From positions 34,586-98,585 of IMG/VR virus record IMGVR_UViG_3300033149_005152: 64,000 bases of DNA; one strand, 5' to 3'. The translations under genes were made by a program, and so were the position numbers. The stretch comes from a virus. Positions 38,210 to 63,787 of the stretch are shown here, piece by piece. The number at the start of each line of letters is the position of its first letter. Position 1 is the first letter of the stretch. The notes under the pieces were generated by a model. It saw nothing but the letters and a program-made list of their open reading frames with translations, made no database searches and had not been told where the DNA came from.

Positions 38210-39064
38210 TTATCGAATATAAAAACGACCTTTTTGTGGAATTCCAGGAAATCCACCAAATCTTTCGTAATTACCATGAGATTTACAATCAGTAAACGTT
38301 TTTTTACAAGTAGTTAAAGCCCCAAAATACCCACATTCAGTTCCTATTTTATATAAAGACGTAGTATCTATTGCGGTAGGCATCGCAGTAACTAAAGTAA
38401 CACCACCCGCTAATTTCTTAGCTATTACCGAACTACTACCTGAATTTGCACCACTATAAATATAAACAACTCTACCAACAACTTTTGTAGCTACACCTAA
38501 AACATCAGAGTCAATAAGAGTAACTTTATCAGAACTTGCTTCAGCAGTACCAGTATAATAAGGAGTATATTTATAAACCCACTGACATAAATCTCTTTGA
38601 TACCGGCGAATAGGAATATCTATCGTATGTAAATTAACAGAACTACAAGTAAATTTCGCATCGTTTTCTCCTATATGAACTCTCGAAATATAAAATTTTT
38701 CTTTTATACAAGCATCTTTATCATCAAGATTATCCCTAAATACAGTTATAATAACAACTTGTAATCCTGATAAACCACTACCATGATGCAAAAGGCTGTG
38801 AATATACCTATCAATATTCGGATAAATAAACTCAACAGTAGGAATTTCCCCCCTGTTACTTATTTCAATTCTTTCATGATGTACTCCCGACTTTGTATAT
38901 GTTTGAGGAGCATCAGTATCAGGTTCAAAATAATCCACGTCATCAATATCCTGAGCAAGATAAAGATATGAGTTACTATCTATTTGGACCCTATAAAGTG
39001 TTATAGGTTGATTTTCTAGTTTATCTTTTTGAGTTCTAAATGGCTGTGTAATATCTATAGGCAT
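38210..39064 (-). CDS. gpL-like minor tail protein
   Basis: IPIRRYQRDLCQWVYK...ECGY...CKKTFTDC...FGGFPGIP (4-Cys motif). Confidence 0.88.
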   Translation of the reverse strand: MPIDITQPFRTQKDKLENQPITLYRVQIDSNSYLYLAQDIDDVDYFEPDTDAPQTYTKSGVHHERIEISNRGEIPTVEFIYPNIDRYIHSLLHHGSGLSGLQVVIITVFRDNLDDKDACIKEKFYISRVHIGENDAKFTCSSVNLHTIDIPIRRYQRDLCQWVYKYTPYYTGTAEASSDKVTLIDSDVLGVATKVVGRVVYIYSGANSGSSSVIAKKLAGGVTLVTAMPTAIDTTSLYKIGTECGYFGALTTCKKTFTDCKSHGNYERFGGFPGIPQKGRFYIR

Positions 39065-40101
39065 TATTTATTTTTCCTCTTCTTTCTTCGATAAGTAGAT
39101 GCAGTAACTCCACCAATACCCATAACAGTAGATGGATATAACCTCTTTTTCCTACGCATTTTCATTTTTGATTTATATTTTCTTTCAGCTCTCGCTTGGC
39201 GAGATGCTATTAGTTTTGTTCTTCTTATTGCTTCTGCTTTTCTTACAGACATCTCAGCCTTTCTAGCTCTTTTCGCAGGAATTAATTTTTTAGAAATAGC
39301 AGCAGTTTCATAATCAATAAGTCTTCTTCTCATTTCATTTGTAGAATATTTACCTAATTTTGGTTTTTTAGATGCCTCCGCCAAGGCACGTTCCAAATGA
39401 GGAATATCTACCTTTTTTATAATTTTTGCTGATTCTGTTAACTTCCAAATTTTGTACCGATCAACTTCCCCAGTTCCTGATCTACCCTTTCTTACTTCTT
39501 TTTTTATCAAATTACCAATTTTCCTCAATAATTTCTTCTTGGATCGTAACGCAGCCGCAGCTTCACTTTTATTATAATCAGATATAGATTTCAAATTTCG
39601 TCCCATTTCTGTAAAACCCGCAGAACCCAAATTAGACCTAACTTGCAAATAGCCCATATCACCTGTATAATAATGAGAAGGAGGTTTTGATCTTGCGTGC
39701 ATAACTTGAGAAGGGTATTCTTCACGAATGGGTTTAGGTAATTTTTCTCTTATGGCCACATTACGCCATCTCATTTTGCCACTTTTAGCCCTAGTAACTT
39801 TTTTACCCGTTATTTTTGCTAATTGTCTTGATTCTGTAGTAGGAACCCATATTCTTTTTCTTTCAGTAGGCCATCCTTCATATTTAGCAAGACGATCTAT
39901 AACTTCATCTCTTGAATACAAATTCACTTTTCTACTAACTCTTTTCTTTATATCCGATTTCGTCAAAGTTTCAATAGGGCGCACTTTGGCCTTTTTCATC
40001 ATTATCTCCTTGATCCTAGAATATGCAGTTTTCCTTATTTTACGAGTGGGAATTCCAAAAAACTCTTTTATTTTCCCTAGTTTATTAAATATTCTTGCCA
40101 A
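39064..40101 (-). CDS. highly basic protein (dispersed basic family member)
   Basis: K/R-rich, TTG start, C-terminal MGIGGVTASTY + RRKKRKNK. Confidence 0.7.
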   Translation of the reverse strand: MARIFNKLGKIKEFFGIPTRKIRKTAYSRIKEIMMKKAKVRPIETLTKSDIKKRVSRKVNLYSRDEVIDRLAKYEGWPTERKRIWVPTTESRQLAKITGKKVTRAKSGKMRWRNVAIREKLPKPIREEYPSQVMHARSKPPSHYYTGDMGYLQVRSNLGSAGFTEMGRNLKSISDYNKSEAAAALRSKKKLLRKIGNLIKKEVRKGRSGTGEVDRYKIWKLTESAKIIKKVDIPHLERALAEASKKPKLGKYSTNEMRRRLIDYETAAISKKLIPAKRARKAEMSVRKAEAIRRTKLIASRQARAERKYKSKMKMRRKKRLYPSTVMGIGGVTASTYRRKKRKNK

Positions 40102-40104
40102 TTA

Positions 40105-40674
40105 TTATTTCACACCTCGCTTTTTCTTCAAACGAAGAATAACATACCTTTTATTCTTATATTTAGTATAAACAAAATCCCTTTTAGGATAATTTTTTTT
40201 CAAATTCTTCAACATCCTTGTGCCAGAAACGGGCAAGACTATATCAGTAACCCTTAATCGTATCCCAGCATTTTCAGCTACTCTATTTTTTCTAATATTT
40301 AAATAAGCCCCGTAACCTAAAGAAGCACCGGAGACACCCAAAGATCCCCACATAATACCCGATAAGGTTTTATCTATCTTTCCATACGGGCTACTCCTAT
40401 ATTCTTTTTTAAATAACTCCTTTAACCTTTTTTCAGCTTCTAACTTTTTCTGCATTCTAGCTTTCGCTTTAACATTTATTCTTCTTTCAACAAATGGAGG
40501 TAAACCTTCTTTACCCCCACTTATAACCTCAAATTTATCCCTTGATCTTTCAACTTTATCATGTACACCCTTTGCTTTTGAAACTTTACCACCTTCTATA
40601 ACTCTAAGCTTATTTTTATTTCTATAAAATCTAGAAAATATTTTTCTAAGTTGTTCTAAAGATATTTTTACCAA
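40105..40674 (-). CDS. highly basic protein with Gly-rich hydrophobic segment (basic family member)
   Basis: QLRKIF motif; GIMWGSLGVSGASLGYGAY. Confidence 0.7.
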   Translation of the reverse strand: MVKISLEQLRKIFSRFYRNKNKLRVIEGGKVSKAKGVHDKVERSRDKFEVISGGKEGLPPFVERRINVKAKARMQKKLEAEKRLKELFKKEYRSSPYGKIDKTLSGIMWGSLGVSGASLGYGAYLNIRKNRVAENAGIRLRVTDIVLPVSGTRMLKNLKKNYPKRDFVYTKYKNKRYVILRLKKKRGVK

Positions 40675-41597: not shown

Positions 41598-44500
41598 TTA
41601 CATTCGCCCCCTTAACATTTTATTTAATTCCCTCTTTTCAGAATAATTTCTCATCACGCTATCTATACTTATTCTTCCAATCAATCCCTGCTCTTGAGCA
41701 AGTAATTTCTGAAAACTAGGAGCATCAACAGCACTAATATTAATCACGGTTATTCCAGACTCAGGTTCAATTCCTCCACCAGTATTCGCTCTTTCAACAG
41801 AAGTACGCCCCAATGCTTTTACAGCATTAGCATTAAGAATATACTCCCCTGAATGAATTGTGGCTAATCCGGATTTAGAAACATAACCTCCTGCTTGATG
41901 ACTATCAGGTATTCCCGAAGGAGTTAACAAATCAGTTACCTTTATAGGAGCTTTACCACCACCAACCTTACTATCACCACTAGGAAAAAGACCCATACCC
42001 CATTCAAGAAGTTTAAAAGCCATAAGCTGGGCAATCATCTTATTTAACGATCTTAAAAAATTTATTGCAAATTGCTTCCAAACATTATCTGCCTCTTTAA
42101 TATTTTCAGTCATATCCGCAAAGGCATCACCCAATCCCAAAACCGTTTGTTTAGCCATATCAGTAATAGCCTTTCCATATTCATATCTCCATGTTTTTAT
42201 ATCATCTTTAGATTCTTCAAAATGTTCTTTCATAGAATCCCAAATAGATATATTTTGAATTCTTGCTTTTTCTGCTTGAGCATATCTTAAAGAAGCAAGG
42301 CCAACTTCATCCCTTCGCATAATGGCTAACATCTTTTTCCGATGTATATATTCATCTTCCGTAATTTGTTTCATCTTTCGTGCATGTTCCAAAGCTAAAT
42401 CTTCTAATTCTCGATTTATTTGTTCTTCATGTGATTTAATTATATCATCAATTCGTAATTTAGTATTTTTTATTTCTTCATCAATAAGCTTCAATTGTTC
42501 CCCATATTGTTTTACCACTTTTAAATGATCTTTATAATCCATTTTTAATATTTTATACTTTTCTTCTTCAAATATTAAGAGTGAAGCAATTATATTTTTT
42601 CTTCTTTCTAATGCATCTAATTGTATTTCGCCCAATTTTTCCTGATAAACTTTTTCACTAATTTGATTAGTCGCTCTTAAACGATCCAATCTCACCCTTT
42701 CTCTCTCATCCATCTTTGTTTCCAAATCATTCCTGGCTTCCAATTCATCTTTTAATTCTTGCATTATTCTTTCGGCATCTTCCTTTCGTGCCGCACCTAT
42801 AGTAGATATTTCCTCATATTTTAAATTAATAAGTTTTTGAGCATATTCCTTTCTCCAAAGTTCTGCTCGATGAAAAAAGTCTTTCCTCTCGTCTTCGCTT
42901 ATTTTAGCAGCTTTCATATCTACCTTATACGCTATTACTCTTTGTTTATGCCGCATAAGTTCAGCATCTAATTCCTTCTTAGCCAATTCCATAACTCCTT
43001 TTGCATATTCTTCCTGAGACATTCTACCTTTTCTTAACTCTTGATCTAATTTTCCTCTTTCTTCTGCAATTTTATTTACAGAATCATGATAAGCTAATTC
43101 AAATGCCCTAAAATTCTCTTCTATTCTTCTAGCCGCAGCTTCAGGAGAATCCTCAATAGGTTGTAATGTAGCCAATACCTTTGAAGTTAATGGAAACTCA
43201 GCTTCCTTTATCAACTCTTTAAGCTCTTCTCCTGCTTTTATCACTTCCACTTTGAGCTTTGTTATACGTTTATCACGCTTTTCTTGATATTCCTCTGGAC
43301 CAAAAAGCATATCAAGAAGAAAATTTCTAGGCCCTTTTCTATACTTATCACCTTCTTTAGTAGCTTTTCTTGCCTTTTTACCCAACTCCTCATAGGCCGA
43401 AAAATATTTGGCACTTAACTTCTTCAAACCAACCTCAAAAGATTTAGCCATAATTTCAAAAGAAGAAGTAAAATATCCAGCAGATGCTTTAGAAGCATCC
43501 TCCATAGCACTACCAATTATTGACAATTCATCCTTTAATTCAGATAGGGCTTTACTTTCTTTTTTTATCTCTTTCGTATACTCCTTTGTATAACCTATGG
43601 ACCTTAATATTGCTTTTTCATCTTCTTTTTTTGCTTCTCTAAGCATCCCAAATAATTTAATAATAGCAGGCAAACTAACTTTATAAAGAATATAAAGAAG
43701 TGTCATCCATGCCGTTAAAGGAACAATCATCCTTGCTATAACAGCAGCAAGCATAACAAATCTAGTATAAAGAAATGTTAAAGACTTAAGAAGCACTCCC
43801 CTAATTAATGCCCCTAAAGTAGCCCCTTGAAGAGCTAATCCAGCTAATTTAACCTTCGTTTTTTCTGCCGCTTTACCAAGAACAGGAAATTTTTTAGCAA
43901 CTCTATCTACTGAAACAAAAATACCACCAAAAATAGCCGGAATTTTAAGATGTAAAATATACTTTGCAAATTTAATAAGCTGAGCAACAACCAAAAAACC
44001 AAAAGCAAATTTCAAAGCCTTACCAAATATTAACAAGGATGTTCCAATAAATCTATAAGCTTCACCTATAGCCCTCAAAACATTTGGAGGTATTTTTAAA
44101 ATAGCATCCGCAAATTTATTTAAAACCTCGTACCATACCATAAAAACACTTTCAGAAGGTTTTCCACCAAGTTTCTGTGCTATCAATTCTAAATTAGAAT
44201 GAAATAACTTTATCTGACCCGCCAAAGTCTCAACATTCGCCTGCATTGATTTTCCAAAAAATCTATCTAATATCTCTCTCAATGCCCTATACCTAACAAC
44301 ACTTTTTTCCACCTTTGTAAGACCTTTCCAAGATTTACCAAGTTCTTCTGTAAATTTTTCAACTTCATGCCCTGTTGAACCTAAATCAATACCATAACTT
44401 CTTAAATGCTGAGGAATGCCTTTAAAAGCCATATTTACTGCATCAATTATATCTAAAAAAGCACCTGGTTGACCAATAGAAGTAGCAAAATCAGAAATTC

Positions 44501-45146
44501 TTTCAATCAATTTGAAAATTTGATCAGCAGACATACCAGAAACTCTTGACATCTCTAACATGATCAATGTGCCTTGACTCAAAATTGCATTACTAATTCC
44601 AGTTACTCTATGCAAATCCTGCATTCTATCAACTATTTGATCTAAATTATGAGATAATGGTCCGGTAGTTTTCTCATAAATTTCCATTTGGGTTTTCAAT
44701 CCAAAAATAATTGTTTCTTGCTCCATAGCTGCTTCAGTCCATTGAGCAGAAGTAGCTAACAAATTTTTACCTATAACCTCGCTTAGATTACTAATTCCCA
44801 ACGTTAAAAGACCAACCTGCGCTGTCAATCCAAATGATAACTCACTTAACTTTAAAAAACCAGGAGCTAAAACAGCCACACTTCCACCAAGTGCTTGCGC
44901 AGAAACCCCCGCAGCACCAAAAACAGCAGAAACCCCCAACAATTTAGTTGCTAAATTAGTTAAAGTTTTTCCAAAAATATTATGAAGGGCTAAATCAGTC
45001 TTATGTAATTCATGACCAGTATGAATTACTTCTTTTTTGAATTCACGTAATGCTTTTGTACTCCCGTCAGCATCAACACCAAGCTTATAGGTAAATTTTC
45101 CAATAATATTTTCAAGCAAAACCAACACTCCCCATGTATTGCTCAT
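41598..45146 (-). CDS. tape measure protein
   Basis: 1182-aa helical protein with hydrophobic segments, HQAGGYV...AT.HSGEYILNA.AV C-terminal motif; position after the chaperone. Confidence 0.9.
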   Translation of the reverse strand: MSNTWGVLVLLENIIGKFTYKLGVDADGSTKALREFKKEVIHTGHELHKTDLALHNIFGKTLTNLATKLLGVSAVFGAAGVSAQALGGSVAVLAPGFLKLSELSFGLTAQVGLLTLGISNLSEVIGKNLLATSAQWTEAAMEQETIIFGLKTQMEIYEKTTGPLSHNLDQIVDRMQDLHRVTGISNAILSQGTLIMLEMSRVSGMSADQIFKLIERISDFATSIGQPGAFLDIIDAVNMAFKGIPQHLRSYGIDLGSTGHEVEKFTEELGKSWKGLTKVEKSVVRYRALREILDRFFGKSMQANVETLAGQIKLFHSNLELIAQKLGGKPSESVFMVWYEVLNKFADAILKIPPNVLRAIGEAYRFIGTSLLIFGKALKFAFGFLVVAQLIKFAKYILHLKIPAIFGGIFVSVDRVAKKFPVLGKAAEKTKVKLAGLALQGATLGALIRGVLLKSLTFLYTRFVMLAAVIARMIVPLTAWMTLLYILYKVSLPAIIKLFGMLREAKKEDEKAILRSIGYTKEYTKEIKKESKALSELKDELSIIGSAMEDASKASAGYFTSSFEIMAKSFEVGLKKLSAKYFSAYEELGKKARKATKEGDKYRKGPRNFLLDMLFGPEEYQEKRDKRITKLKVEVIKAGEELKELIKEAEFPLTSKVLATLQPIEDSPEAAARRIEENFRAFELAYHDSVNKIAEERGKLDQELRKGRMSQEEYAKGVMELAKKELDAELMRHKQRVIAYKVDMKAAKISEDERKDFFHRAELWRKEYAQKLINLKYEEISTIGAARKEDAERIMQELKDELEARNDLETKMDERERVRLDRLRATNQISEKVYQEKLGEIQLDALERRKNIIASLLIFEEEKYKILKMDYKDHLKVVKQYGEQLKLIDEEIKNTKLRIDDIIKSHEEQINRELEDLALEHARKMKQITEDEYIHRKKMLAIMRRDEVGLASLRYAQAEKARIQNISIWDSMKEHFEESKDDIKTWRYEYGKAITDMAKQTVLGLGDAFADMTENIKEADNVWKQFAINFLRSLNKMIAQLMAFKLLEWGMGLFPSGDSKVGGGKAPIKVTDLLTPSGIPDSHQAGGYVSKSGLATIHSGEYILNANAVKALGRTSVERANTGGGIEPESGITVINISAVDAPSFQKLLAQEQGLIGRISIDSVMRNYSEKRELNKMLRGRM

Positions 45147-45938: not shown

Positions 45939-46208
45939 CTACAAGATGCGTCTCTTTTTTCTCCTCTGAGGAGATCGGCCGTATGCTATATAACCCCCAA
46001 TATGACTTCTTGCCTGCCTTATTCTACGCCTGCCCATTACAGAAGCATATTTTCTACCATAACGCAATCTTTCACCTATATTACGCCTCAAAGACCCCAC
46101 ACTCCTACGCCGTCCAGCAGGAAGTCTTGTATAGTATCTTCCAGCCCTTTTCCTTGCACTTCCAACTAAATTTATTAATTTTTTCAATAAAGAACTATAT
46201 GCAGCCAA
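45939..46208 (-). CDS. small Arg-rich protein (basic family member)
   Basis: GGAGG SD + TTG; KLINLV; IGGYIAYG + RRKKRR. Confidence 0.7.
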   Translation of the reverse strand: MAAYSSLLKKLINLVGSARKRAGRYYTRLPAGRRRSVGSLRRNIGERLRYGRKYASVMGRRRIRQARSHIGGYIAYGRSPQRRKKRRIL

Positions 46209-47382: not shown

Positions 47383-47757
47383 TTAATATTTTTCCCTTTT
47401 TTTACGTTTTTTAGAAATTTTGGGGTGTCGCAACGTACCATACTTTTTATAAAGTGCAGCCGAACTTAATCCAGTCGCCCCTAAAACAGCAGCTATACCC
47501 CCGTATTTTTTAGCAATTCGTTTTCTCTCCGCCGTAAATGGAGTTACTCCATATTTGTATCTGCGCCTAGTTGATCTAACAGCTCCTCCAACTCTATCTT
47601 TTACACCTCTAATTTTACGCCCTACAGCAAATTTACCACGCCTTGCCTTTGAAAGAGCTTCCCTTCCATATCTAGCGGGCTTAGCCTTAATTTTGGCTAA
47701 AAGCCTTCTTAATTGACCGATTCTCTTCATTGATCTTGCCATATTCGTTAATGCCAT
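47383..47757 (-). CDS. Arg/Lys-rich protein (basic family member)
   Basis: QLRRLL; GGIAAVLGATGLSSAALY; K/R tail. Confidence 0.7.
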   Translation of the reverse strand: MALTNMARSMKRIGQLRRLLAKIKAKPARYGREALSKARRGKFAVGRKIRGVKDRVGGAVRSTRRRYKYGVTPFTAERKRIAKKYGGIAAVLGATGLSSAALYKKYGTLRHPKISKKRKKREKY

Positions 47758-48625: not shown

Positions 48626-48877
48626 TTAATCTTTTTTCTTTTTCTTTCTTATGCGTTTTTTTAGAGCATAACCACCATATAAACCAGCACCTATTTCAGT
48701 AGCTAAACCCATTCTTTCATAACGTTTTGGATTTTTGAGATAGGACTGCCTAGCTTTACTTCTACCCAATCTTATGCGACTTCTCATAGCCACATTCTTC
48801 CTCCATGCATGGTATCTAGCTTTTTTCTTTAATTTAGATAAAAGTTCTCTTAATTTTCCAACATTCATTCTTGCCAT
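48626..48877 (-). CDS. small Arg/Lys-rich protein (basic family member)
   Basis: KLRELL; GLATEIGAGLYGGYAL; KKRIRKKKKKD. Confidence 0.7.
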   Translation of the reverse strand: MARMNVGKLRELLSKLKKKARYHAWRKNVAMRSRIRLGRSKARQSYLKNPKRYERMGLATEIGAGLYGGYALKKRIRKKKKKD

Positions 48878-49646: not shown

Positions 49647-52600
49647 TTATGAAATTCGAGTCATCTCAACAAATCTATCCACATTCATAGAAATAAATTC
49701 CCTAAATTCTTTTTCGGTTACAAACCATAATGTCTGCGGTTTATATTCACCTTTTGCATCCAAACCACCTATTCCACCAGCTAGAGTAAATGCTACTTGA
49801 AACGGAGGCATATTAGTTTCTTCCATTGGAATTCCAAATCTACCCAATCTCTCCAATGCTTGTTGTGTTACCACGGTAGATAATTTATGATAAATATTTT
49901 CAGGATTATCAAATCCAGCTTCTTTATAAATTCTATAAACTGACTTCAAATATCTTTCTCCATCCGCCCCTAATTTTCCTTCAAGAGCTTCTATCTCCCA
50001 ATTAGTTAAATTAATATAATCTCTCTGCATCAAAACTTTACCTAATTGTCTTTGTGGATGAAGCTGGCGATCCTTCTTTAATAATCTTAAATTTCTAAAG
50101 GCACATTTAGCACGTCTTTGCTCTTCAATAATATATCCAAAATGTGCTATATCTACGTCAGGCAACATCAATGCGGGCCATATGGGAGTATCCATACCAT
50201 TTTCCACATGTTCGTGGATACAATTGTGAACCACTATTCCATTAGCTACATAATTATGATTATCCTGAACCTCCATATTATAAACATCTGTTTTACCAAT
50301 TTTTTCTATTTTAGTAATTATATGATTTGATCTAAATCTTTCAAGATCACTTCTTCTTTGTATTTTTAATTCTTCCCATTTTTTTACTAATTCTGAAACA
50401 TCTTTATTATTCCTTTTATCATTTCTAATTTGTGCCAGCAATTTCCATTGTTCTTTAGACCATTTTTCTCTACTTTTTTGACCTATTTTCTTCTTTGTTT
50501 CTTCAGAATGATGTCTCCCAAAATTAGGATTATTTTTTCCACTCACATCATAATGATTTTTTGAAATCAACTTTTTTGTCCTTTCGGAAACAAATTTACC
50601 GAGGTGATGTAAAGAAACGTGATCCTTAGATTTCATTAATTCTAAATTATTAATAGAATTATTAAAAGTATTTTTATCTTTATGATGCCCATCTCCATCA
50701 AATTTACCATTCATAACTTCTAAAATATATCTATGTTCAGATACACGATTATTCTTTCTCAATATTTTGTCACTGCAATCAACATTATTTATTAACCAAT
50801 ATTTTTTTTCTAACATTCTTCTAAATGGTAAAAGTGAATCCCCAACTTTTAAATCTGATACATTTTTATAAATGTTATTGAATAACATCACCGGATGATT
50901 ACCGGTAATTTTCAACGAATCAACTTTTCCGGTATATCCATCTTTATACGTCATTTTGTATACATCAACATTTCTACCAATACATTGAACATCCAAAATT
51001 GGTTTTAATTGGAATTTATTTAATTTTCTATTATAAGAATAACAATATTCATCCTTATAATTATTTACTAAATCTTTTATTGGTATTCCATTGGGATATT
51101 TGGATAAATCTCTCGGCATATCAATACAAGTATCACCAGATACACAACCATAAAACTTATATCCTTTAAAATTTCTAAATAATCTAGCTGGAACATCTGG
51201 TGTTACGTCCTTTAAATCTATACTTAAATGTTGTTGTCTAATTATGAAACATTCAAAAATTTCAGTACCAACATACTTTCTAAGATTATGAGGTCTTACC
51301 AATAATTCATCTGCATCAATCCAAAGAATAAAATCTCCAGTAGCTTTTTCTATAGATTTATTTCTAGCCCAACCAAAATTAAACAACCCGTCCCCATCAG
51401 GATCATCAGTTTCTTCATATACTATTGCACCTAATTCCTTTGCAATTTCTACCGTTCTATCGGAAGAATTACATGAAACAACAATTATTTCATCCACTAC
51501 GTCCCTAAATGACTTAATACATCTTCCTATATTATCTTCTTCATTCTTAGCAATCATACAAGCAGAAACACTTTTATATGGTCTTGTTATCAATATCTTT
51601 TTATCTACATCATATTCTCCGGTTTCTCTACTTTTATCCTTATGATACCTTATTAACCATGCTGCTATTAAATCACCTCGTGGATTTATTGCAAGGGGGG
51701 AATGTTGCAATTCAAAATCTTTTTTCTTACCAAATATTTCTTTTAGATTATTAAATTTATAATGATGAATGTGGTATCTCGATTTCCCTTGTTTTTCATA
51801 TGATTGCCACTCCATAGGGCCACTAGGAATTGTAAATATAATTAATCCATCTTCAACACACAAATCTTCCATCATATCAATATATTTTTTGTAATCCACA
51901 ACATGTTCAAGAAATTCTCCCGCAACAACCACATCATATTTATCGCCTTTAAAATCTTTATGATAATCCTCTAAATCAGAATGAATAAATGTAGGCTTAG
52001 AAATATTTCTATCTAATTGCTCATTACAAAATTCCTTGGCTACCTGTAAAACACCCTCAGTAAAATCAATTCCCGTGTAATCCACTTCCGGATTTTTAAG
52101 CATAACAGTAGTCGCTATACCACCAGCACCACAACCCACATCTAAAACACGTAACTTATTATTCCCCTTTAATCTTCGTTCATCGGCTATAAATTCTGCT
52201 ACTGCACGAAACCTTGCATTAATCTTCCATTTATCATTCGCCCATAATGCAGTATTTTCATTAAAATATTGTTCCTTATCAATCCCAACATTATCCATAA
52301 TTTCCTGAGAAATTGGTAATTCCGGTAAATCTTCCCGTTTTGCAAGGTAATGGGCAGTAACATGATCTGAATAATAAGAAAGATTCTGCCATATTTTAGA
52401 CCAATTTTTATTTGCTCTTCGAGTAAATAATTCTATTATTTTATTTTCCCATTCTTCAGCCCTATCTTTCCAACTATAATTCTTTTTAACAAAATCAATT
52501 CCTTCTTTTGCTATCCTATCATACAATTGTTTATTTTCAACAAATTCAAAAACCCTATTCGTAAAATCTTTCTGGTATTTTTCCGTTTCTAAATCACCTT

Positions 52601-53507
52601 TAACTCTACATTCATGAAATGGAACTGTCTCTGGTAATGCAAAATTATCAGTGCATATAATAGGAGTTCCCATTACTTGAGCACTAATAGCAGAAATACA
52701 TTGTATTTCTGGGAACTTACTAGGATAAATCATTAACTTAGAAGATGCCAACCATCGTAAATAATCATCCTGTTTCAACTGTCCTAAATTTACAACATTA
52801 GGAGTTTGATTTATTAATTGATTAATATAATCATAAAATTGCGTTAGATGTTCCGGTATGGGTAATCCCCGTATATCATACCCACATAACATTAATTCAG
52901 CTCTAGGATTTCTTTTTAATATTTGAGGCCATATATTCTCCAGTAACTGTTGTAATCCACGTTCAGGTCTAGATGAATAAATAAATCTGTCCTCATTCTT
53001 TTTAATTTTCCCCTCATCAAATTCTTGCCATACTTGGTCTACCATATCCATATCAAGGCCATTAGATGTAACCCAGATATGAGGATCAATTTCAGGAAAT
53101 TCTTTTGTAAATAATTCTTTATGAAAACGGCTTAAACAAAAAATATGATCCGTTTGCCACAAATGAGATGCAAAATGTGCAACATTTACCAATACGTCAT
53201 GATTTACAAGAATATTTAATTCAGAACGAAATCTTGTAACCAACTGGTCATAAAACCTATATACAAAAAATACATCAAACTCGGCCACTGTTCTAATTTT
53301 ATCAAAATTATCAAAATGATGATAATATACCCCATCATACAGACCAGGAGCATCACAATTGCACCATACCTTCACATCATGTCCTCGTGCGGCCATTTCC
53401 TTGGCCATCATAAGAAGGGCTGTTTCTGATCCCCCTAAAGCCCTTTCTTTTAATGTTCGACCAGAAAACTTCAGACCCTGAGTGTAAAAACCTATTAAAA
53501 ACTTCAT
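49647..53507 (-). CDS. multidomain GT-B (GT4-like) glycosyltransferase / SAM methyltransferase / GT-A (GT2-like) glycosyltransferase, interrupted by an intein
   Basis: LGGSET, YSSRPERGL, YPS.FPE; VLDVGCGAG, EFLEHV; CMIAKNEE, F..ARN, WIDADE, HE, HFGY. Confidence 0.9.
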   Translation of the reverse strand: MKFLIGFYTQGLKFSGRTLKERALGGSETALLMMAKEMAARGHDVKVWCNCDAPGLYDGVYYHHFDNFDKIRTVAEFDVFFVYRFYDQLVTRFRSELNILVNHDVLVNVAHFASHLWQTDHIFCLSRFHKELFTKEFPEIDPHIWVTSNGLDMDMVDQVWQEFDEGKIKKNEDRFIYSSRPERGLQQLLENIWPQILKRNPRAELMLCGYDIRGLPIPEHLTQFYDYINQLINQTPNVVNLGQLKQDDYLRWLASSKLMIYPSKFPEIQCISAISAQVMGTPIICTDNFALPETVPFHECRVKGDLETEKYQKDFTNRVFEFVENKQLYDRIAKEGIDFVKKNYSWKDRAEEWENKIIELFTRRANKNWSKIWQNLSYYSDHVTAHYLAKREDLPELPISQEIMDNVGIDKEQYFNENTALWANDKWKINARFRAVAEFIADERRLKGNNKLRVLDVGCGAGGIATTVMLKNPEVDYTGIDFTEGVLQVAKEFCNEQLDRNISKPTFIHSDLEDYHKDFKGDKYDVVVAGEFLEHVVDYKKYIDMMEDLCVEDGLIIFTIPSGPMEWQSYEKQGKSRYHIHHYKFNNLKEIFGKKKDFELQHSPLAINPRGDLIAAWLIRYHKDKSRETGEYDVDKKILITRPYKSVSACMIAKNEEDNIGRCIKSFRDVVDEIIVVSCNSSDRTVEIAKELGAIVYEETDDPDGDGLFNFGWARNKSIEKATGDFILWIDADELLVRPHNLRKYVGTEIFECFIIRQQHLSIDLKDVTPDVPARLFRNFKGYKFYGCVSGDTCIDMPRDLSKYPNGIPIKDLVNNYKDEYCYSYNRKLNKFQLKPILDVQCIGRNVDVYKMTYKDGYTGKVDSLKITGNHPVMLFNNIYKNVSDLKVGDSLLPFRRMLEKKYWLINNVDCSDKILRKNNRVSEHRYILEVMNGKFDGDGHHKDKNTFNNSINNLELMKSKDHVSLHHLGKFVSERTKKLISKNHYDVSGKNNPNFGRHHSEETKKKIGQKSREKWSKEQWKLLAQIRNDKRNNKDVSELVKKWEELKIQRRSDLERFRSNHIITKIEKIGKTDVYNMEVQDNHNYVANGIVVHNCIHEHVENGMDTPIWPALMLPDVDIAHFGYIIEEQRRAKCAFRNLRLLKKDRQLHPQRQLGKVLMQRDYINLTNWEIEALEGKLGADGERYLKSVYRIYKEAGFDNPENIYHKLSTVVTQQALERLGRFGIPMEETNMPPFQVAFTLAGGIGGLDAKGEYKPQTLWFVTEKEFREFISMNVDRFVEMTRIS
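50223..51146 (-). mobile_element. intein (308 aa) with HNH homing endonuclease and NUMOD3-like motifs
   Basis: G|CVSGDT start, ITGNHP block B, HHKDKNTFNN HNH, VYNMEVQDNHNYVANGIVVHN|C end. Confidence 0.92.
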
Positions 53508-57728: not shown

Positions 57729-58583
57729 TTATCTACTTCTTTTAACTAATTTTTTGTAATATTTTCTACCTACAGGAGTTTGAAATAATGGATATTCTTT
57801 TACAGGTATCTCCATAACTTTTATTCCCTTCTTTTTCAACAAAACATGAAAATCCCAATTATTTTTGCCCTTTTCCAAACGAGATTGAGACCACTTCTGA
57901 ACTTCTGTAGCACTAGGCCATTTTCCACCTTTCAACCTCTCATATCTATAAACAATTCTTTTATTGGGAACAACAATATCAAATATTTTCGGTTGTGTAA
58001 CAGCACTCAAATTTAAATCTTGTTGAGAAATAGTTTGTAATTTTTGCTGTTTCACTAAAAATCTTGTACTATTGTAAGCCATTTTACGTAATGAATATTC
58101 TTTACTTCTAGGATTCATCCGAGAAAGATCATATCTCATTTCTTTTTTTAACTCTTTTAGCTCTTTTATATCCATACCCATAACTTTTTTTAAGGGTACT
58201 TTAGGATGATTATGTATCATCCAACTATGCCCTTTCACCATAAAAGGCGATCTCACAAATTGCCCAGTCTTTACATCAAGAACACCAGTATCGGACATTC
58301 TTTCTAAACCAATAGAAGGAAGTCTTACTCCATATTTTTGTCCTTTTATAACTTGACCAGTAGAAGGTAAAAGTAAAGTTTCCCTCCCATAACTTGTCAA
58401 TGCTCTCTCAGGGATTAATCTTTCTCTTCTTCTTTTTCTAAAAGAACGAGCTAATAATTCACGTAAACGAGGATTTCTAGCTATAGATTTAGCAAACCTT
58501 TTTATCGGAACAGGTTGAGTAACCCATTTTCCCAACTTTTTAGAAAAAAATCTTAATTGTTTTATTCTGGCCAATAAAGACAC
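57729..58583 (-). CDS. basic protein with JAB/JAMM-like domain (motif split by an insertion)
   Basis: QLRFF leader; RE...IHNHP...[insert]...ISQQD; paralog of the 60402 protein. Confidence 0.6.
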   Translation of the reverse strand: MSLLARIKQLRFFSKKLGKWVTQPVPIKRFAKSIARNPRLRELLARSFRKRRRERLIPERALTSYGRETLLLPSTGQVIKGQKYGVRLPSIGLERMSDTGVLDVKTGQFVRSPFMVKGHSWMIHNHPKVPLKKVMGMDIKELKELKKEMRYDLSRMNPRSKEYSLRKMAYNSTRFLVKQQKLQTISQQDLNLSAVTQPKIFDIVVPNKRIVYRYERLKGGKWPSATEVQKWSQSRLEKGKNNWDFHVLLKKKGIKVMEIPVKEYPLFQTPVGRKYYKKLVKRSR

Positions 58584-58591
58584 ATCCCATT

Positions 58592-58921
58592 TTAAAATTC
58601 TATTTGTCTTAAAATTTCACCTTTTTCATTTTTCTTAAGTTTATCCTCTTTTTTAACTTCTTCTGATTCCTTAATGGTAAAAGGAGATTTCATCATCACT
58701 CCTGTTTTTAAATCAGCAATTAGAGGCCAATCATTACGCTTTCTCGCTTGTTCTGCTCTTTCTATTAATAATTCACCCACATTTATTTCCCCAGAAGTTG
58801 TCGTAAACCCATCAGAAGAATCTGAATATCCAAATTTTTCATAATACCACGAAGGCCACCCAGACGCATCAACTACCGTTATTAATGTACCATTATTACA
58901 CGCAGTATTCGCAGTATCCAT
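58592..58921 (-). CDS. hypothetical protein
   Basis: ORF. Confidence 0.55.
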   Translation of the reverse strand: MDTANTACNNGTLITVVDASGWPSWYYEKFGYSDSSDGFTTTSGEINVGELLIERAEQARKRNDWPLIADLKTGVMMKSPFTIKESEEVKKEDKLKKNEKGEILRQIEF

Positions 58922-59391
58922 TATTTACTCCTCCTAATATAAAAATCTATCTTTTTAACCTTCTCATAAGTTAAATTATCAACTATTAAAGTTGGAGAAC
59001 GATTCAATTTAGAAATCCACAACATTTGTATATCACAATTATGCACTTTCTTACTTTCATTTATTAAATCGTTAGCATCTTTAACTAAATAATGAGATAA
59101 TTTTGTATTTCTAAATTCCTCTACTATAGATTGAAACATAAGGTGGTGATGAATTCCGTCATAAAATAATCCCATACATCCTATAGGAACCCATTTTTCT
59201 GGATTTAAAGCTACAAGAATTAAACCTCCTCGCATCAAGAAACCATTTAAAGAAACATCGTCTATATAATCAAAACCACTATTATTAATAATGGGAATTA
59301 AACCTCTTAAATATTCTTTACTTTTATCAGCATCGTCACCCAACAACATTCGATTTGATAAAACAACTAATTTATAAAATTCATCTTTCAT
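58921..59391 (-). CDS. hypothetical protein, possibly GNAT-like fold
   Basis: LILVA...PIGCMG...IVEEFRNTKLSHYLV resembles GNAT motif A (weak). Confidence 0.45.
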   Translation of the reverse strand: MKDEFYKLVVLSNRMLLGDDADKSKEYLRGLIPIINNSGFDYIDDVSLNGFLMRGGLILVALNPEKWVPIGCMGLFYDGIHHHLMFQSIVEEFRNTKLSHYLVKDANDLINESKKVHNCDIQMLWISKLNRSPTLIVDNLTYEKVKKIDFYIRRSK

Positions 59392-59400
59392 AATTATTTC

Positions 59401-60081
59401 CTATGTTTTTTTGGTTCTTATTCCTCGTCTTATATAATAAGTTTTATTATTTCTTCTCACGGGATAATAAACCCTCTTTCTGCCTACTTTTTTAGGTCTG
59501 CCCACTTTCTTCTTAACTATTATGGGAGTTGGATAAAAATCAGGATACTCCCTTCTTAATAAGGATTCCCTCCTTAATTCATTTTCCATCCTTTTTCTAA
59601 ATTCTCTTTCTTTCCTTTGTTCTAGTTCTTTTGCTTTTTGAAGTAATTCCTTTCTCTTTCTTTCTTCCCTTATCCTACGAATTTTCATCTCTTGTCCACG
59701 TCTGCGCTCTCTTAATGCTTCTCTAGCTACCATTCCTACACCTGGTGCAGCTGCGGTTCCAAATAAAACATAAGGATGAGAAATAAATCTTTCAAATCTA
59801 TCTCCACCAGCTTCTAATTTCCTCAATTTCTCTTCGCTTTGTGAAATAAATTCTTCGCCCGCTTCTATTTCTCGCCTTAATTCCTGTGCTCTTCTGGTTT
59901 CCTTATTTTTTAATCTATTATATCGTTTTTTATTTGCGCTAATTGCTCTTTTTTCTTCATTAATAATTTTTTGTAAATCAGATATTTTTACTTTTTTTCT
60001 ACGAGCAAACTGTCTACCAGTCCGTCCAGTAGCATTTAAAATATGTCTTAAAGCCGAAAGTATACTACGTCCATATGCCAC
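59401..60081 (-). CDS. basic coiled-coil protein (basic family member)
   Basis: ALRHIL; VLFGTAAAPGVGMVA; KKVGRPKKVGR tail. Confidence 0.7.
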   Translation of the reverse strand: MAYGRSILSALRHILNATGRTGRQFARRKKVKISDLQKIINEEKRAISANKKRYNRLKNKETRRAQELRREIEAGEEFISQSEEKLRKLEAGGDRFERFISHPYVLFGTAAAPGVGMVAREALRERRRGQEMKIRRIREERKRKELLQKAKELEQRKEREFRKRMENELRRESLLRREYPDFYPTPIIVKKKVGRPKKVGRKRVYYPVRRNNKTYYIRRGIRTKKT

Positions 60082-60084
60082 TTA

Positions 60085-60402
60085 TTATAATTCACCTCTT
60101 TCTATTAATAATCCTTCAAGAAGAACCATATAATTTATAATATCCCCGATTTTTTCAGTCCAATATTCTGATGGTTGAGATTGTCCTCTTTCCAATCTTT
60201 GAATATTTGTAATAATTCCAAACCAGTGCTTTGTAACTAAATTCATTAAATAACGTTCAGGTATTTCCCCTAATGCTTGAGAACCGTCTTTAAAATTACG
60301 TAATCTATCCTTTTCTACATATTCTTGCCCTTTTTGTAGTAATACCTGTTCACATTTCTCAAGTCTATTTTTTACTATCATATCAAATTCTTTTTGTGTC
60401 AT
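60085..60402 (-). CDS. DUF1599/nucleotide-modification-associated (MazG-like) protein
   Basis: KGQEY...DRLRNF...KH...EKIGDIINY. Confidence 0.7.
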   Translation of the reverse strand: MTQKEFDMIVKNRLEKCEQVLLQKGQEYVEKDRLRNFKDGSQALGEIPERYLMNLVTKHWFGIITNIQRLERGQSQPSEYWTEKIGDIINYMVLLEGLLIERGEL

Positions 60403-61151
60403 TATTTTCTCCCTTTAGACCATTTTCTTTGTCTTATTTTTCTAATAACTCTATCTAATTGTTTTTCTTTATATGTTATCCAATGATCATACTCTTTAGC
60501 TGCTTCTTTTGATACATTTTTCATAATTGGATGTTTTGAAAAAGGAATTACCTTCATTATCACATTTTCTTCAAGTTCACGTGGAACCTTTCCCTTTATT
60601 CTTGCCAAAACCTCATAATATTTTTGAGAAGTAGGCCAATTTCCATCTCTACATATAAACCTATTTACAACTCTTTTACGAGGATCAACAATATCCATAA
60701 TTTTTTCTTTATAATTTCTAGCAAGATAAACATCTGCGGTACTTGGTAATGCTATTCCCGAAGGATGATTGTGAATGTTATAACCTACACCAAGTTTTCT
60801 ACGCATTACTTCTAACGGCCTAAATCTTTTATCAAACTGGTCAAAATGTACGTTCTCTTTTCCTCCTACCACCCATTCTCGCTTAGGTTTAGCTCCTTTA
60901 CCTCTTTTTCTTAATGAAAAAGAAACTTCTCTTTTCTTACTTGCCAATGCTACAGGCATACCACCATATTTTTTACGTATTTTTCGCCGGATAAATTCAT
61001 CGGAAGTTAATTCAGTTTCTCCCAAAGCATAAATTTCATCCATTAACGTAGATAAAGTCTGTTTTTTCTTCCTTTTCGCTCTTTTATATCTCCTACTTTT
61101 ACCTAAAACGCCACGAAGTCTAAGCAGAGCAGCATATTTTTTCTTAGCCAA
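60402..61151 (-). CDS. basic protein with JAB/JAMM metalloprotease-like domain
   Basis: RLRGVL leader; RE...HNHPSGIALPSTAD = H-x-H-x7-S-x2-D. Confidence 0.7.
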   Translation of the reverse strand: MAKKKYAALLRLRGVLGKSRRYKRAKRKKKQTLSTLMDEIYALGETELTSDEFIRRKIRKKYGGMPVALASKKREVSFSLRKRGKGAKPKREWVVGGKENVHFDQFDKRFRPLEVMRRKLGVGYNIHNHPSGIALPSTADVYLARNYKEKIMDIVDPRKRVVNRFICRDGNWPTSQKYYEVLARIKGKVPRELEENVIMKVIPFSKHPIMKNVSKEAAKEYDHWITYKEKQLDRVIRKIRQRKWSKGRK

Positions 61152-61183
61152 TCATTTTCTCCTCCTTTTACGCCGATAATTTA

Positions 61184-62878
61184 TTATTTTGCTACCATAT
61201 AACGATAAACTAATAATGGACTATTGGGAGAATAAACTTCAATCCATCCGTCCTTTATATTTAATCCTGAAAAATAATCCTGCACTTGACGAACTATCTG
61301 ATATTTTGAAGGCAAATACTTAATTACTGACTCTTCAGCTATTAAACTGCCATTATCACCATAAGCTTTAATTGAAATTTCAGCACCCTCTTTTCCAGGA
61401 TTAAAAATACTCATCATAGTTGTCCATCCAGATATAGACGTTAAATAGAAAATTGTCCAACGCTTTTTTGGTGTAAAAGATGGAAAAGCTACAGCATGAT
61501 CAACCACCGGAGAAGCACAAATAGACTCATCTCCACTAAGTTTAGCCTTTTCGCTTTTAACAATCATCCAACCTTCAGAATCTTCCTCAAAAAATTGATG
61601 AAGTTCATCAGAAAACTTCAAAACGTGTCCCATTGGATTAATAGAAATTGCAGGCCTATTAAGGACATAATTTTCTCCTTCGTTCATATAATATTCAACA
61701 CTCAAATCATCAACAACCGATACAGGACAAAGATTAACGATACTCAACACAGTCATCATTCCAGATGTTTTCGCTTTTTGAACGACATAAAAATAAAGGG
61801 GATCACCAGGCGAGCATAATACCTCATCGTCAAATGGCACACAAGGGGTCTCACCCTCTCCAGGACACATCGAAGCATCCACAAAGGTAACTTCACCCTT
61901 GTTCACCCTCACGTTACCGTAACACCACGAACGATAGCCGTCACGAGTATATTTTATTTCATAAAGTCCTGGAGAAATATTTAATGTATAATTTCCTGCT
62001 GAAATACGATTAAAAAAAGTTCCTGATTGTGTTATAATAATATGATTTCCTGGATTAACAACTACTTGAACACCAGCTAATCCCAACCCAGTGGAAGCAT
62101 CTATTACTCTACCACTAATAGTACCAACAGAATCGGGAGAAAACGTAACCTCGTTATAAATATCTTTTATATCATTTTCTGATAAATTTACCTTATAAAA
62201 CCTAATTTCATCCATCCAACAATTAACAGGGCATATTTCCATTTGCCCATAATGTGAACTGCATCCTATATAAATAGGTGTTGATGAACCATTATACCTA
62301 AAATAATTATAATTAACAGCTTTTAAAACACCATCAACATATATTTTTTTACCATCTTCACCCCAAGTACATGCTACATGATGCCAATCATTATCCCTAA
62401 AAATATCATCAATTTTAGTATATAAATTACAATCGTCATTAAATCCAGGAGGTTTAGTTTTAAAATTCAAATGTCCAGCTGGATTAGCAGAATTTCCTTG
62501 TTTTCCTCCGATCCAACTTAAATGAAAATTAGGATCGTTACCAATTGCAAAAAAATCATGACGCTCATCATCTTCCATAAAATCAAACAAGGGTTTTATC
62601 CAAGCAGTAAAAGTTCCTCTATCAGCAGTCCAAAAGCCAGAATTTACAAACTTTACTGAAGAACCATATGTAAAATCAGCAGCCCTCCCCAATCCTGGGA
62701 TACTATCAGCGTATGTAATTCCTTTTACAATAGGGGAATGATCACTAACTACATCTCTCATATCCCCCTCGCAAGGAAGATGTAAAGATGGAGTAACCGC
62801 ATTAGCATTAGAAATAAATAGGGGAAATCCTATTAAAATTCCAACCAATAAGAACAAATTAAAAATTTCCATTTTCAT
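61184..62878 (-). CDS. secreted protein: LamG domain + carboxypeptidase-regulatory-like domain + beta-rich C-terminus
   Basis: Signal peptide (..SNANA); TFTAWIK, WHHVACTW, IYVDG, DEIRFY; GTISGRVIDASTG. Confidence 0.78.
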   Translation of the reverse strand: MKMEIFNLFLLVGILIGFPLFISNANAVTPSLHLPCEGDMRDVVSDHSPIVKGITYADSIPGLGRAADFTYGSSVKFVNSGFWTADRGTFTAWIKPLFDFMEDDERHDFFAIGNDPNFHLSWIGGKQGNSANPAGHLNFKTKPPGFNDDCNLYTKIDDIFRDNDWHHVACTWGEDGKKIYVDGVLKAVNYNYFRYNGSSTPIYIGCSSHYGQMEICPVNCWMDEIRFYKVNLSENDIKDIYNEVTFSPDSVGTISGRVIDASTGLGLAGVQVVVNPGNHIIITQSGTFFNRISAGNYTLNISPGLYEIKYTRDGYRSWCYGNVRVNKGEVTFVDASMCPGEGETPCVPFDDEVLCSPGDPLYFYVVQKAKTSGMMTVLSIVNLCPVSVVDDLSVEYYMNEGENYVLNRPAISINPMGHVLKFSDELHQFFEEDSEGWMIVKSEKAKLSGDESICASPVVDHAVAFPSFTPKKRWTIFYLTSISGWTTMMSIFNPGKEGAEISIKAYGDNGSLIAEESVIKYLPSKYQIVRQVQDYFSGLNIKDGWIEVYSPNSPLLVYRYMVAK

Positions 62879-63689: not shown

Positions 63690-63704
63690 TTAATCCTCCA
63701 CTGT

Positions 63705-63787
63705 ATTAACATTAAAAATAAATAAGGGAAATCCTATTAAAACCCCCCACCAATAAGAACAAATTAAAAATTTCCATTTTCATATTA
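63705..63787. repeat. ~82-bp direct repeat, copy 2 (frameshifted gene-start remnant MKMEIFNLFLLVG...)
   Basis: Near-identical to 62801-62882, with an indel at the C6 run. Confidence 0.85.

What the first reader, a model, noticed from the sequence alone, without database searches (positions are those of the whole stretch)
57729..61151. Two paralogous JAB/JAMM metalloprotease-like proteins carried on basic leaders
Seen: 60402 has a canonical E...H-x-H-x7-S-x2-D motif (HNHPSGIALPSTAD). 57729 has E...HNHP, then a ~55-aa insertion, then SQQD. The two align downstream (KIMDIVDPRKRVVNRF..DGNWP vs KIFDIVVPNKRIVYRY..GGKWP). Established: JAB domains cleave after ubiquitin-like GG ends and occur in lambda gpK, CBASS Cap3 and the Bil anti-phage Ubl system; related HxHP domains occur as polymorphic-toxin tips. 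Inference: these may process the phage's own Ubl tail protein, deconjugate host defence Ubls from virion proteins, or act as delivered toxins.
Basis: partly seen in the sequence, partly recalled or inferred. Interest (0 to 1): 0.72.

Follow-up and report, generated by a model that had tools for sequence, protein, structure and literature searches.

The report
Orphan RadC-like JAB proteins with basic ends
An uncultured 98.6-kb phage encodes three (not two) distantly related copies of an orphan protein that carries the zinc-site signature of RadC-type JAB enzymes between a very basic N-terminal leader and a basic tail. They are probably enzymes loaded into the phage particle, and nothing found here ties them to ubiquitin-like proteins.

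Summary
Both ORFs are real paralogues (BLASTP E 6e-6). A third copy lies outside the window (G000 626-1381, minus strand), about 3.5 kb upstream of the 60402 gene across the terminal repeat.

The 60402 copy has a full E...HNHPSG-x3-PS-x2-D signature. The third copy has Thr for Ser and no aligned Glu. The 57729 copy has 59 residues where 7 are canonical and no aligned Glu.

The only outside similarity is to RadC-clade JAB domains. It is confined to the active-site core and falls below Pfam's cut-off. Exhaustive HMMER over 1.84 billion representatives found no homologue outside this genome.

The fold could not be verified: both AlphaFold models were poor (pLDDT 52 and 43). ESM-Atlas neighbours (RadC/JAB clusters, MuF and minor-capsid proteins) are leads only.

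All three belong to a set of nine proteins in this phage with a shared MA[RK]..L[RK].LL leader and a polybasic C-tail. My best reading (confidence about 0.4) is tagged, DNA-associated virion cargo carrying a RadC-like metallohydrolase. The Ubl-processing, Bil/CBASS and toxin readings have no direct support.

The scan has noted tagged RadC/JAB-like virion proteins in other phages, but none with related sequence.

The parts
60402..61151 (-). JAB-like paralogue A (P0002, 249 aa). It is the only copy with a complete E...HxH...S..D signature. TTG start, 10 nt after an AAGGAGG Shine-Dalgarno at 61162-61168.
60960..61151 (-). Basic N-terminal leader of paralogue A (residues 1-64, MAKKKYAALLRLRGVLGK...KKYGG). 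The first 40 aa carry net charge +13.
60732..60773 (-). HNHPSGIALPSTAD, the predicted zinc-site signature. Putative ligands are His127, His129 and Asp140; Ser137 is the canonical helper.
60927..60929 (-). Codon of Glu75, the candidate catalytic Glu. It lies 52 residues before the first His, as in RadC, but is not conserved in the other two paralogues.
   Evidence: inference from alignment
60405..60641 (-). Family-specific C-terminal extension (W172, [SK][KRE][HY]P[IL][MF][KQ]) ending in a polybasic tail (RKIRQRKWSKGRK). RadC has no counterpart.
57729..58583 (-). JAB-like paralogue B (P0001, 284 aa from the GTG). The start is probably the TTG at 58574, giving MARIKQLR. The signature is interrupted.
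58203..58214 (-). HNHP of paralogue B, preceded by the conserved GxxWxI strand.
58029..58202 (-). Lys/Glu-rich 58-aa stretch between HNHP and SQQD in paralogue B, about 52 aa longer than the canonical loop. It looks helical by composition, and no structure was predicted for it.
58017..58028 (-). SQQD of paralogue B, aligned with STAD and TLDD of the other copies.
59401..60081 (-). 226-aa orphan protein between the two JAB-like genes. It has the same basic leader (MAYGRSILSALRHIL) and polybasic tail but no JAB motif, and belongs to the nine-protein 'bookend' set.

Best explanation
These are three diverged paralogues of a phage-specific family.

Shown:
- The core keeps the metal-binding signature of RadC-clade JAB enzymes: a beta-strand ending in H-N-H-P, then [ST]-x-x-D at the start of a helix.
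- The core sits between a shared amphipathic basic N-terminal leader (MA[RK]..L[RK].LL) and a polybasic C-terminal tail.
- Six other orphan proteins scattered through the virion gene block of this phage have the same 'bookends'.

Inferred:
- The basic ends bind the phage DNA and/or act as a loading tag. The proteins would then be made late, packed into the particle with the genome and delivered into the host at infection. This resembles T4 internal proteins or the RadC-containing 'polyvalent' proteins of phages and conjugative elements.
- Copy A (60402) binds Zn2+ through His127, His129 and Asp140, uses Glu75 to activate water and acts as a hydrolase.
- Its substrate is more likely a nucleic acid, a nucleotide or a host protein than a ubiquitin-like tail.
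- Copies B and C keep the His/His/Asp triad but lack the aligned Glu. They may be altered-specificity or non-catalytic partners.
For: Paralogy:
- A-C BLASTP E 5e-12, A-B 6e-6, B-C 2e-3.
- HNHP, D, DI..P.KR...R, W and P are invariant among all three at 26-28% identity.

JAB/RadC signature:
- Pfam RadC E 0.002-0.003, with Prok-JAB as second hit.
- In a whole-genome scan, copy A is the only place touching PF04002 or PF14464.
- NCBIfam RadC models match weakly.
- In the profile search of 5.8 billion proteins, every non-self hit is RadC.
- hhalign gives 97% probability.
- The secondary-structure order in both AF2 models (helix, strand-HNHP, short helix after S..D, beta-hairpin) fits the JAB core.
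- ESM-Atlas neighbours of two paralogues include RadC, Prok-JAB and Toxin-JAB1 clusters.

Cargo reading:
- Exactly 9 of 129 minus-strand ORFs combine an N-terminal 40-aa net charge of +8 or more with a C-terminal 15-aa net charge of +5 or more. The three JAB-likes are among them.
- Their leaders align.
- The window copies sit among virion genes (Gp80-like protein, LamG/CBM proteins).
- RadC domains are documented in phage and plasmid polyvalent proteins predicted to be injected (PMC5512222).
- ESM-Atlas structural neighbours also include head-packaged MuF and minor-capsid-2 proteins (lead only).
Against: - No usable 3D model: pLDDT 52 and 43, and no fold-library match. The JAB fold rests on about 30 residues of sequence.
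- The Pfam score is below the gathering cut-off (18.5 against 22.1 bits).
- The RadC 'DH' strand motif is absent.
- The catalytic Glu is not conserved among the paralogues.
- The RadC sequences used for hhalign were pre-selected by similarity to the query, which inflates that score.
- Packaging is pure inference. There is no proteome, no relative with a proteome and no recognisable prohead protease or MuF.
- The third copy lies among nucleotide-metabolism and methyltransferase genes rather than virion genes.
Confidence: 0.4

Rival explanations
1. Ubl-directed isopeptidases. The stand-alone JAB-likes replace the JAB half that the gpK-like protein has lost. They would cut the gpI-like Ubl from the I-J tail-tip fusion, or strip host Bil/CBASS-type Ubl conjugates from virion proteins.
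For: - The 1979-aa tail-tip protein starts with a lambda gpI homologue (E 1e-8) containing NLRGG.
- The 134-aa K-like protein matches only the NlpC/P60 half of gpK (E 8e-11).
- No other JAB-like sequence exists in the genome.
- The H-x-H-x7-S-x2-D spacing is the same as in gpK.
Against: - The best similarity is to the RadC clade, argued to lack the Ub-tail groove (PMC5512222).
- hhalign to gpK gives 0.9% probability. PADLOC gives no hit.
- The genes are about 20 kb from the tail-tip genes.
- RGG aligns with AGA of lambda gpI, so it is not a conserved cleavage end.
- The tail-tip module is GTA-like (DUF2460, BR0599, NlpC/P60). From my own knowledge, such modules normally work without a JAB.
- Two of the three copies lack the Glu.
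Confidence: 0.1
2. Cytoplasmic RadC-like enzymes that are not packaged. The basic arms tether the protein to DNA or RNA inside the infected cell, for example for genome processing, repair or anti-restriction. The shared ends reflect nucleic-acid binding rather than virion loading.
For: - RadC domains are linked by context to DNA processing (PMC5512222).
- The third paralogue sits beside thymidylate synthase and DNA methyltransferase genes.
- No protease, MuF or proteome evidence supports packaging.
Against: - Six architecture-mates are wedged between tail and head-tail genes.
- The two window copies lie among virion-type genes.
- A common N-terminal peptide on unrelated bodies is more typical of a targeting tag.
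Confidence: 0.2
3. Non-catalytic, DNA-condensing or structural virion proteins built on a decayed JAB scaffold (pseudo-enzymes).
For: - Extreme basicity (pI 10.5-10.9).
- The aligned Glu is missing in two copies.
- Copy B has a 52-aa insertion inside the active-site loop.
- A second JGI contig has copy B called as two ORFs (214 + 68 aa), broken at residues 215-216. This hints that it may be dispensable.
Against: His-Asn-His-Pro and the Asp are invariant in all three copies although overall identity is only 26-28%. That argues for selection on the metal site. Copy A keeps every canonical residue.
Confidence: 0.2
4. Divergent MuF / minor-capsid-protein-2 type head proteins (SPP1 gp7-like) rather than JAB enzymes.
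For: ESM-Atlas structural neighbours of both tested paralogues include Phage_Mu_F, Phage_min_cap2 and VG15 clusters: TM 0.54-0.63 normalised by the 60-228 part for copy A, and 0.37-0.47 by the whole protein for copy C. The phage has no recognisable MuF.
Against: - No Pfam hit to PF04233 or PF06152 at E up to 10.
- hhalign to SPP1 gp7 gives 0.2% probability.
- The genes are not next to the portal gene.
- The matched region in those long proteins is unknown and could be a fused effector domain.
Confidence: 0.05

Closest known systems
RadC-like JAB domain (Pfam PF04002; e.g. PDB 2QLC), including RadC domains in phage and plasmid polyvalent proteins (Iyer et al. 2017, PMC5512222)
   Same: - HNHPSG-x3-P[ST]-x2-D signature with identical spacing.
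- A hydrophobic strand before the signature, then a helix and a beta-hairpin after it.
- In copy A, a Glu about 50 residues upstream and a GG about 30 residues upstream, as in RadC.
- Occurrence in phages as proteins predicted to be delivered with the DNA.
   Different: - Below the Pfam cut-off.
- No similarity outside roughly 30-80 core columns.
- The RadC 'DH' strand motif is replaced by D/S/V-P-x-K-R.
- An added C-terminal extension of about 70 aa.
- Basic leader and tail.
- Glu absent in two copies, and a 52-aa insertion in one.
- No homologue outside this genome.
Lambda gpK JAB/MPN domain with the gpI Ubl; Cap3 (CBASS) and Bil JAB deconjugases
   Same: Generic JAMM spacing H-x-H-x7-S-x2-D. 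The phage does carry a gpI-like Ubl on its tail-tip protein, and its gpK-like protein lacks the JAB half.
   Different: No significant sequence similarity. The genes are not adjacent to the Ubl, and there is no E1/E2. The closest clade (RadC) is thought not to bind Ub tails.
T4 capsid-targeting sequence on internal proteins IPI-III and Alt (my own knowledge); tagged cyanophage cargo noted earlier in this scan (e1-3598354, e1-3598355, e1-5706062)
   Same: A short shared N-terminal peptide on otherwise unrelated, very basic proteins encoded among virion genes. An enzyme domain, here JAB-like, is among the tagged set.
   Different: The leader sequence is unrelated. A polybasic C-tail is also present. 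No prohead protease or cleavage motif was identified. No proteomic evidence exists for this phage.
MuF / SPP1 gp7 head proteins fused to effector domains (MuF polymorphic toxins)
   Same: The concept of head-packaged enzymes. ESM-Atlas lists such proteins as structural neighbours.
   Different: No MuF sequence signature, and not adjacent to the portal gene.

Membership tests
JAB/JAMM (MPN+) metalloenzyme superfamily | H-x-H-x7-S-x2-D zinc-site motif | tested here: met
   Copy A has HNHPSGIALPSTAD. The third copy has HNHPSGKLIPTLDD, with Thr for Ser. Copy B does not meet it: 59 residues lie between the second His and the Ser.
JAB/JAMM (MPN+) metalloenzyme superfamily | Conserved catalytic Glu on an upstream strand | tested here: inconclusive
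   Glu75 of copy A is at RadC-like distance. The aligned residue is Lys in the other two. An E/E/D column 16 residues later is an alternative.
JAB/JAMM (MPN+) metalloenzyme superfamily | MPN alpha/beta fold with converging His/His/Asp | tested here: inconclusive
   AF2 models scored pLDDT 52 and 43. Foldseek against PDB and BFVD and VIA-align wide gave no clear match. ESM-Atlas lists RadC and Toxin-JAB1 neighbours at TM 0.37-0.54.
RadC (PF04002) | Score above Pfam gathering cut-off (22.1 bits) | tested here: not met
   17.8-18.5 bits over 24 residues for copy A. No hit for the other two copies.
RadC (PF04002) | HNHPSG...PS..D signature | tested here: met
   Exact in copy A. One substitution (T for S) in the third copy. 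hhalign gives 66% identity over 29 columns.
RadC (PF04002) | Conserved D-H in the strand after the helix (..lDHiI..) | tested here: not met
   D130 and H131 are invariant in the five RadC sequences. They align with R and K of DIVDPRK.
Ubl-specific JABs (lambda gpK, Cap3, Bil) | Sequence-model match | tested here: not met
   No PADLOC family at E up to 10. hhalign to gpK gives probability 0.9%.
Ubl-specific JABs (lambda gpK, Cap3, Bil) | Gene adjacency to a Ubl, E1/E2, or fusion to NlpC/P60 | tested here: not met
   The Ubl-J gene (31839-37778) and the NlpC/P60 gene (37793-38197) are about 20 kb away. The neighbours of the JAB-like genes are LamG, phrog_6802 and Gp80-like genes.
Ubl-specific JABs (lambda gpK, Cap3, Bil) | Cleavage after a Ubl GG end | not testable with these tools
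   Needs a biochemical assay.
MuF / Phage_min_cap2 head proteins | PF04233 or PF06152 match; gene next to the portal gene | tested here: not met
   No hit in the proteins or the genome. hhalign to SPP1 gp7 gives 0.2%. The post-portal genes are different.
Toxin-JAB1 (PF15659) | Profile match | tested here: not met
   No match in the genome at E up to 10. The only link is an ESM-Atlas structural neighbour at TM 0.54.
Leader-tagged virion cargo (T4 CTS-like) | Shared N-terminal peptide on unrelated proteins encoded among virion genes | tested here: met
   Leader alignment. Nine of 129 ORFs have both basic ends.
Leader-tagged virion cargo (T4 CTS-like) | Presence in particles; removal of the tag by a prohead protease | not testable with these tools
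   The phage is uncultured, and no relative was found in the viral, genome or phage collections.

The most novel reading that the evidence does not exclude
This phage has its own cargo-addressing system: an amphipathic basic leader plus a polybasic tail that loads nine different bodies into the particle. The three JAB-like cargoes are trans-acting replacements for the JAB half lost from its gpK-like protein. They would act on ubiquitin-like modifications at the tail tip, either maturing the gpI-like Ubl-J fusion or removing host Bil-type Ubl conjugates. If so, they would be, to my knowledge, the first phage-borne counter to bacterial ubiquitin-like defence.
Probability: 0.07. Interest if true: 0.8.

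Novelty: new variant of a known kind. Interest (0 to 1): 0.4.

Why it matters
RadC-type JAB domains are common in phages, prophages and conjugative elements, yet their biochemical function remains unresolved in the literature read here. This phage offers a compact natural series: one canonical copy, one without the aligned Glu, and one with a 52-aa insertion in the active-site loop. All three sit on the same basic carrier, which could be used to ask what the domain does and whether it travels in the virion.

The shared basic 'bookends' on nine otherwise unrelated orphan proteins add an independent example to the tagged-cargo pattern this scan has noted in other uncultured phages.

As it stands, the finding is a divergent member of a known superfamily with an inferred delivery mode. 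It is not evidence for a ubiquitin-related mechanism.

Tried and rejected
- Word-indexed homologue searches with each protein returned only self hits.
- Exhaustive phmmer of the copy-A core returned the in-genome paralogue. It also returned about 27 NHL-repeat propellers matched repeatedly by 'NHPxG[IV]A[VL]d..g.vY'. I rejected these as motif noise, since they match in 2-11 short stretches per protein. The Pizza6 hit in the PDB search is the same kind.
- Scans of IMG/VR and GTDB genomes with the family alignment found no relatives. Scans with terL found none either.
- The nearest cultured phages are only about 21-27% identical in terL or portal: Microcystis phage Mvi-JY20 and various roughly 108-kb siphophages. 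No synteny comparison was possible.
- tblastn of the core against 50,697 phage records gave only non-significant motif hits, several of them annotated RadC/JAB.
- Both AlphaFold2 jobs gave low confidence. Foldseek against PDB, Foldseek against BFVD and VIA-align wide gave no meaningful match. This says nothing about the fold.
- PDB sequence searches placed RadC 2QLC at only E 0.36-0.69.
- MAFFT on full-length proteins repeatedly misaligned the HNHP of copy B. Only the domain-only alignments A2 and A7 are trustworthy.
- Promoter and terminator scans were at chance level.
An exact-match metagenome scan for the second contig carrying copy B found nothing.
- Chance motif or non-coding ORF was rejected on the shuffles, the paralogy and the Shine-Dalgarno site.


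Full report
**What the window is.** The window is bases 34586-98585 of a complete 98,585-bp IMG/VR phage record with direct terminal repeats. GC content is about 31-35% and essentially all genes are on the minus strand. The record carries:
- a siphovirus-type tail module, with tape measure at 41598-45146;
- GTA-like distal-tail and hub proteins (DUF2460, BR0599);
- an NlpC/P60 protein;
- a 1979-aa tail-tip protein.

**The observation.** Both ORFs exist as described.
- Copy A (60402-61151, 249 aa, P0002) carries HNHPSGIALPSTAD at 60732-60773. It follows an AAGGAGG Shine-Dalgarno site 10 nt upstream of its TTG start.
- Copy B (57729-58583, 284 aa, P0001) carries GHSWMIHNHP, then 59 residues, then SQQD. 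The canonical spacing is 7, so the insertion is about 52 aa.
- In all ORFs of the genome, the pattern H.H.{7}[ST]..D occurs only in this family. Shuffles give 0.29 expected.

**A third paralogue.** The exhaustive phmmer search of 1.84 billion representatives gave one genuine hit, P0023 (E 4e-4, one stretch over 126 residues). It is encoded by the same genome at 626-1381 (minus strand) and carries HNHPSGKLIPTLDD. Because the record has terminal repeats, this gene lies about 3.5 kb upstream of copy A in the direction of transcription.

Pairwise E-values are 5e-12 for A-C and 2e-3 for B-C. An HMM of the three finds no fourth member in the genome.

The domain-only alignment A2 shows these invariant positions at 26-28% identity: Y, K, G, V, D, G, H-N-H-P, D, D-I, P, K-R, R, W, K and P.

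All other phmmer hits were NHL-repeat propellers matching a short repeat motif many times, and I discount them.

**Relationship to known families.**
- Pfam reports only RadC (17.8-18.5 bits against a cut-off of 22.1; E 0.002-0.003; 24 residues) and Prok-JAB, and only for copy A.
- Whole-genome scans agree, and show there is no other JAB-like sequence in the phage.
- NCBIfam RadC models match at 17-18 bits.
- A profile search in 5.8 billion proteins returns five RadC proteins at about 25 bits as its only non-self hits. These are not significant database-wide.
- hhalign of A2 against those five gives 97% probability, driven by a 29-column core at 66% identity. The alignment extends to 79 columns at low stringency. 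These RadC sequences were pre-selected by similarity to the query, so the score is optimistic.
- In copy A, Glu75 and the GG at 96-97 sit at RadC-like distances from the HNH. The other two copies have Lys at the Glu position and lack a 10-residue segment.
- The RadC 'DH' motif is absent.
- PADLOC, Toxin-JAB1 and MuF models do not match.
- hhalign probabilities are 0.9% to lambda gpK and 0.2% to SPP1 gp7.

**Fold.** Both AlphaFold2 jobs, run on three-sequence alignments, were poor: pLDDT 52 and 43. Their secondary-structure order fits a JAB core:
- helix;
- strand ending in HNHP;
- short helix after S..D;
- beta-hairpin;
- an extra helix-strand-helix.

The models are too weak for fold searches, and those searches returned nothing meaningful.

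ESM-Atlas holds its own models, with pLDDT 0.62 for copy A and 0.75 for the third copy. For both it lists the same neighbour types:
- small unnamed Bacillota clusters of about 155 aa (feature score 0.92-0.93);
- MuF, minor-capsid-2 and VG15 proteins;
- RadC, Prok-JAB and Toxin-JAB1 clusters.

These are leads only. They fit a JAB-like domain of the kind carried by head-packaged proteins, but I could not see which parts matched.

**The basic ends.**
- Nine of 129 minus-strand ORFs combine a strongly basic first 40 residues (net charge +8 or more) with a strongly basic last 15 residues (+5 or more).
- The nine are the three JAB-likes and the ORFs at window 39064, 40105, 45939, 47383, 48626 and 59401.
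- Their N-termini align as MA[RK]..L[RK].LL. Copy B fits this if it starts at the TTG at 58574.
- The six others are orphans.
- Most of the six sit between tail or head-tail genes.
- Several of the six carry a Gly/Ala-rich hydrophobic segment before the tail. The KKYGG-hydrophobic junction of copy A resembles that of the 47383 protein.

**The Ubl idea.** The tail-tip protein does begin with a lambda gpI homologue (E 1e-8). The K-like protein matches only the NlpC/P60 half of gpK (E 8e-11). Several points weigh against the link:
- RGG aligns with AGA of gpI.
- The JAB-likes are about 20 kb away.
- Their affinity is with the RadC clade, which Iyer et al. argue lacks the Ub-tail groove and probably acts on nucleic acids or nucleotides. 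The same paper records RadC in polyvalent proteins predicted to be injected (PMC5512222).

**Verdict.** This is a genuine three-member orphan family with a RadC-type JAB metal-site signature. It is most likely a tagged, DNA-associated virion cargo enzyme (confidence about 0.4). Ubl processing is possible but unsupported (about 0.1). Notes from this scan describe tagged RadC/JAB-like virion proteins in other phages, but a sequence look-up found none related to these.

Noticed in passing
L001:626-1381 (= G000:C1:626-1381, minus strand; outside the window): Third JAB-like paralogue (P0023, 251 aa, HNHPSGKLIPTLDD) with the same basic leader and tail. Across the terminal repeat it lies about 3.5 kb upstream of the 60402 gene, beside thymidylate synthase and DNA methyltransferase genes.
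   Followed up: yes
window 39064-40101, 40105-40674, 45939-46208, 47383-47757, 48626-48877, 59401-60081 (all minus strand): Six further orphan proteins share the MA[RK]..L[RK].LL leader and polybasic C-tail. Several have a Gly/Ala-rich hydrophobic segment just before the tail (e.g. KKYGGIAAVLGATGLSSAALY). They sit between tail genes.
   Followed up: partly
window 31839-37778 and 37793-38197: The 1979-aa tail-tip protein begins with a lambda gpI homologue (E 1e-8), and its NLRGG aligns with VAGA of gpI. The 134-aa upstream protein matches only the NlpC/P60 half of lambda gpK (E 8e-11).
   Followed up: yes
window 62796-62875 and 63700-63779: 80-nt direct repeat (71% identity, 904 bp apart). The first copy encodes the signal-peptide-like start of the LamG protein (MKMEIFNLFLLVGILIGFPLF). 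The second lies upstream of the kinase/phosphatase gene, like a leftover gene start.
   Followed up: no
L001:161-205 and 577-621: 45-nt direct repeats (89% identity, 416 bp apart) flank the 124-aa ORF just downstream of the third JAB-like gene.
   Followed up: no
window 57939-57944 (codons 215-216 of the 57729 gene): A second JGI contig (3685 bp) has this gene called as two ORFs of 214 and 68 aa, broken at residues 215-216. I could not fetch the DNA, so I cannot say whether it is a real variant or an assembly error.
   Followed up: partly
window 49647-53507: A single 1286-aa ORF combines GT4, SAM methyltransferase and GT2 domains, with an HNH/NUMOD3 intein inserted in the GT2 part (Pfam).
   Followed up: no
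window 60085-60402: A 105-aa protein overlaps the stop of copy A by one base. It matches phrog_6802 (unknown function, E 3e-23). The genes after the other two paralogues were not compared with it, though the one after copy B belongs to a different family (Gp80-like).
   Followed up: no
window 60732-60780: The stretch NHPSGIALPSTADVYLA mimics an NHL-repeat unit. It draws dozens of beta-propeller proteins in HMMER searches, which is a trap for automated annotation.
   Followed up: yes
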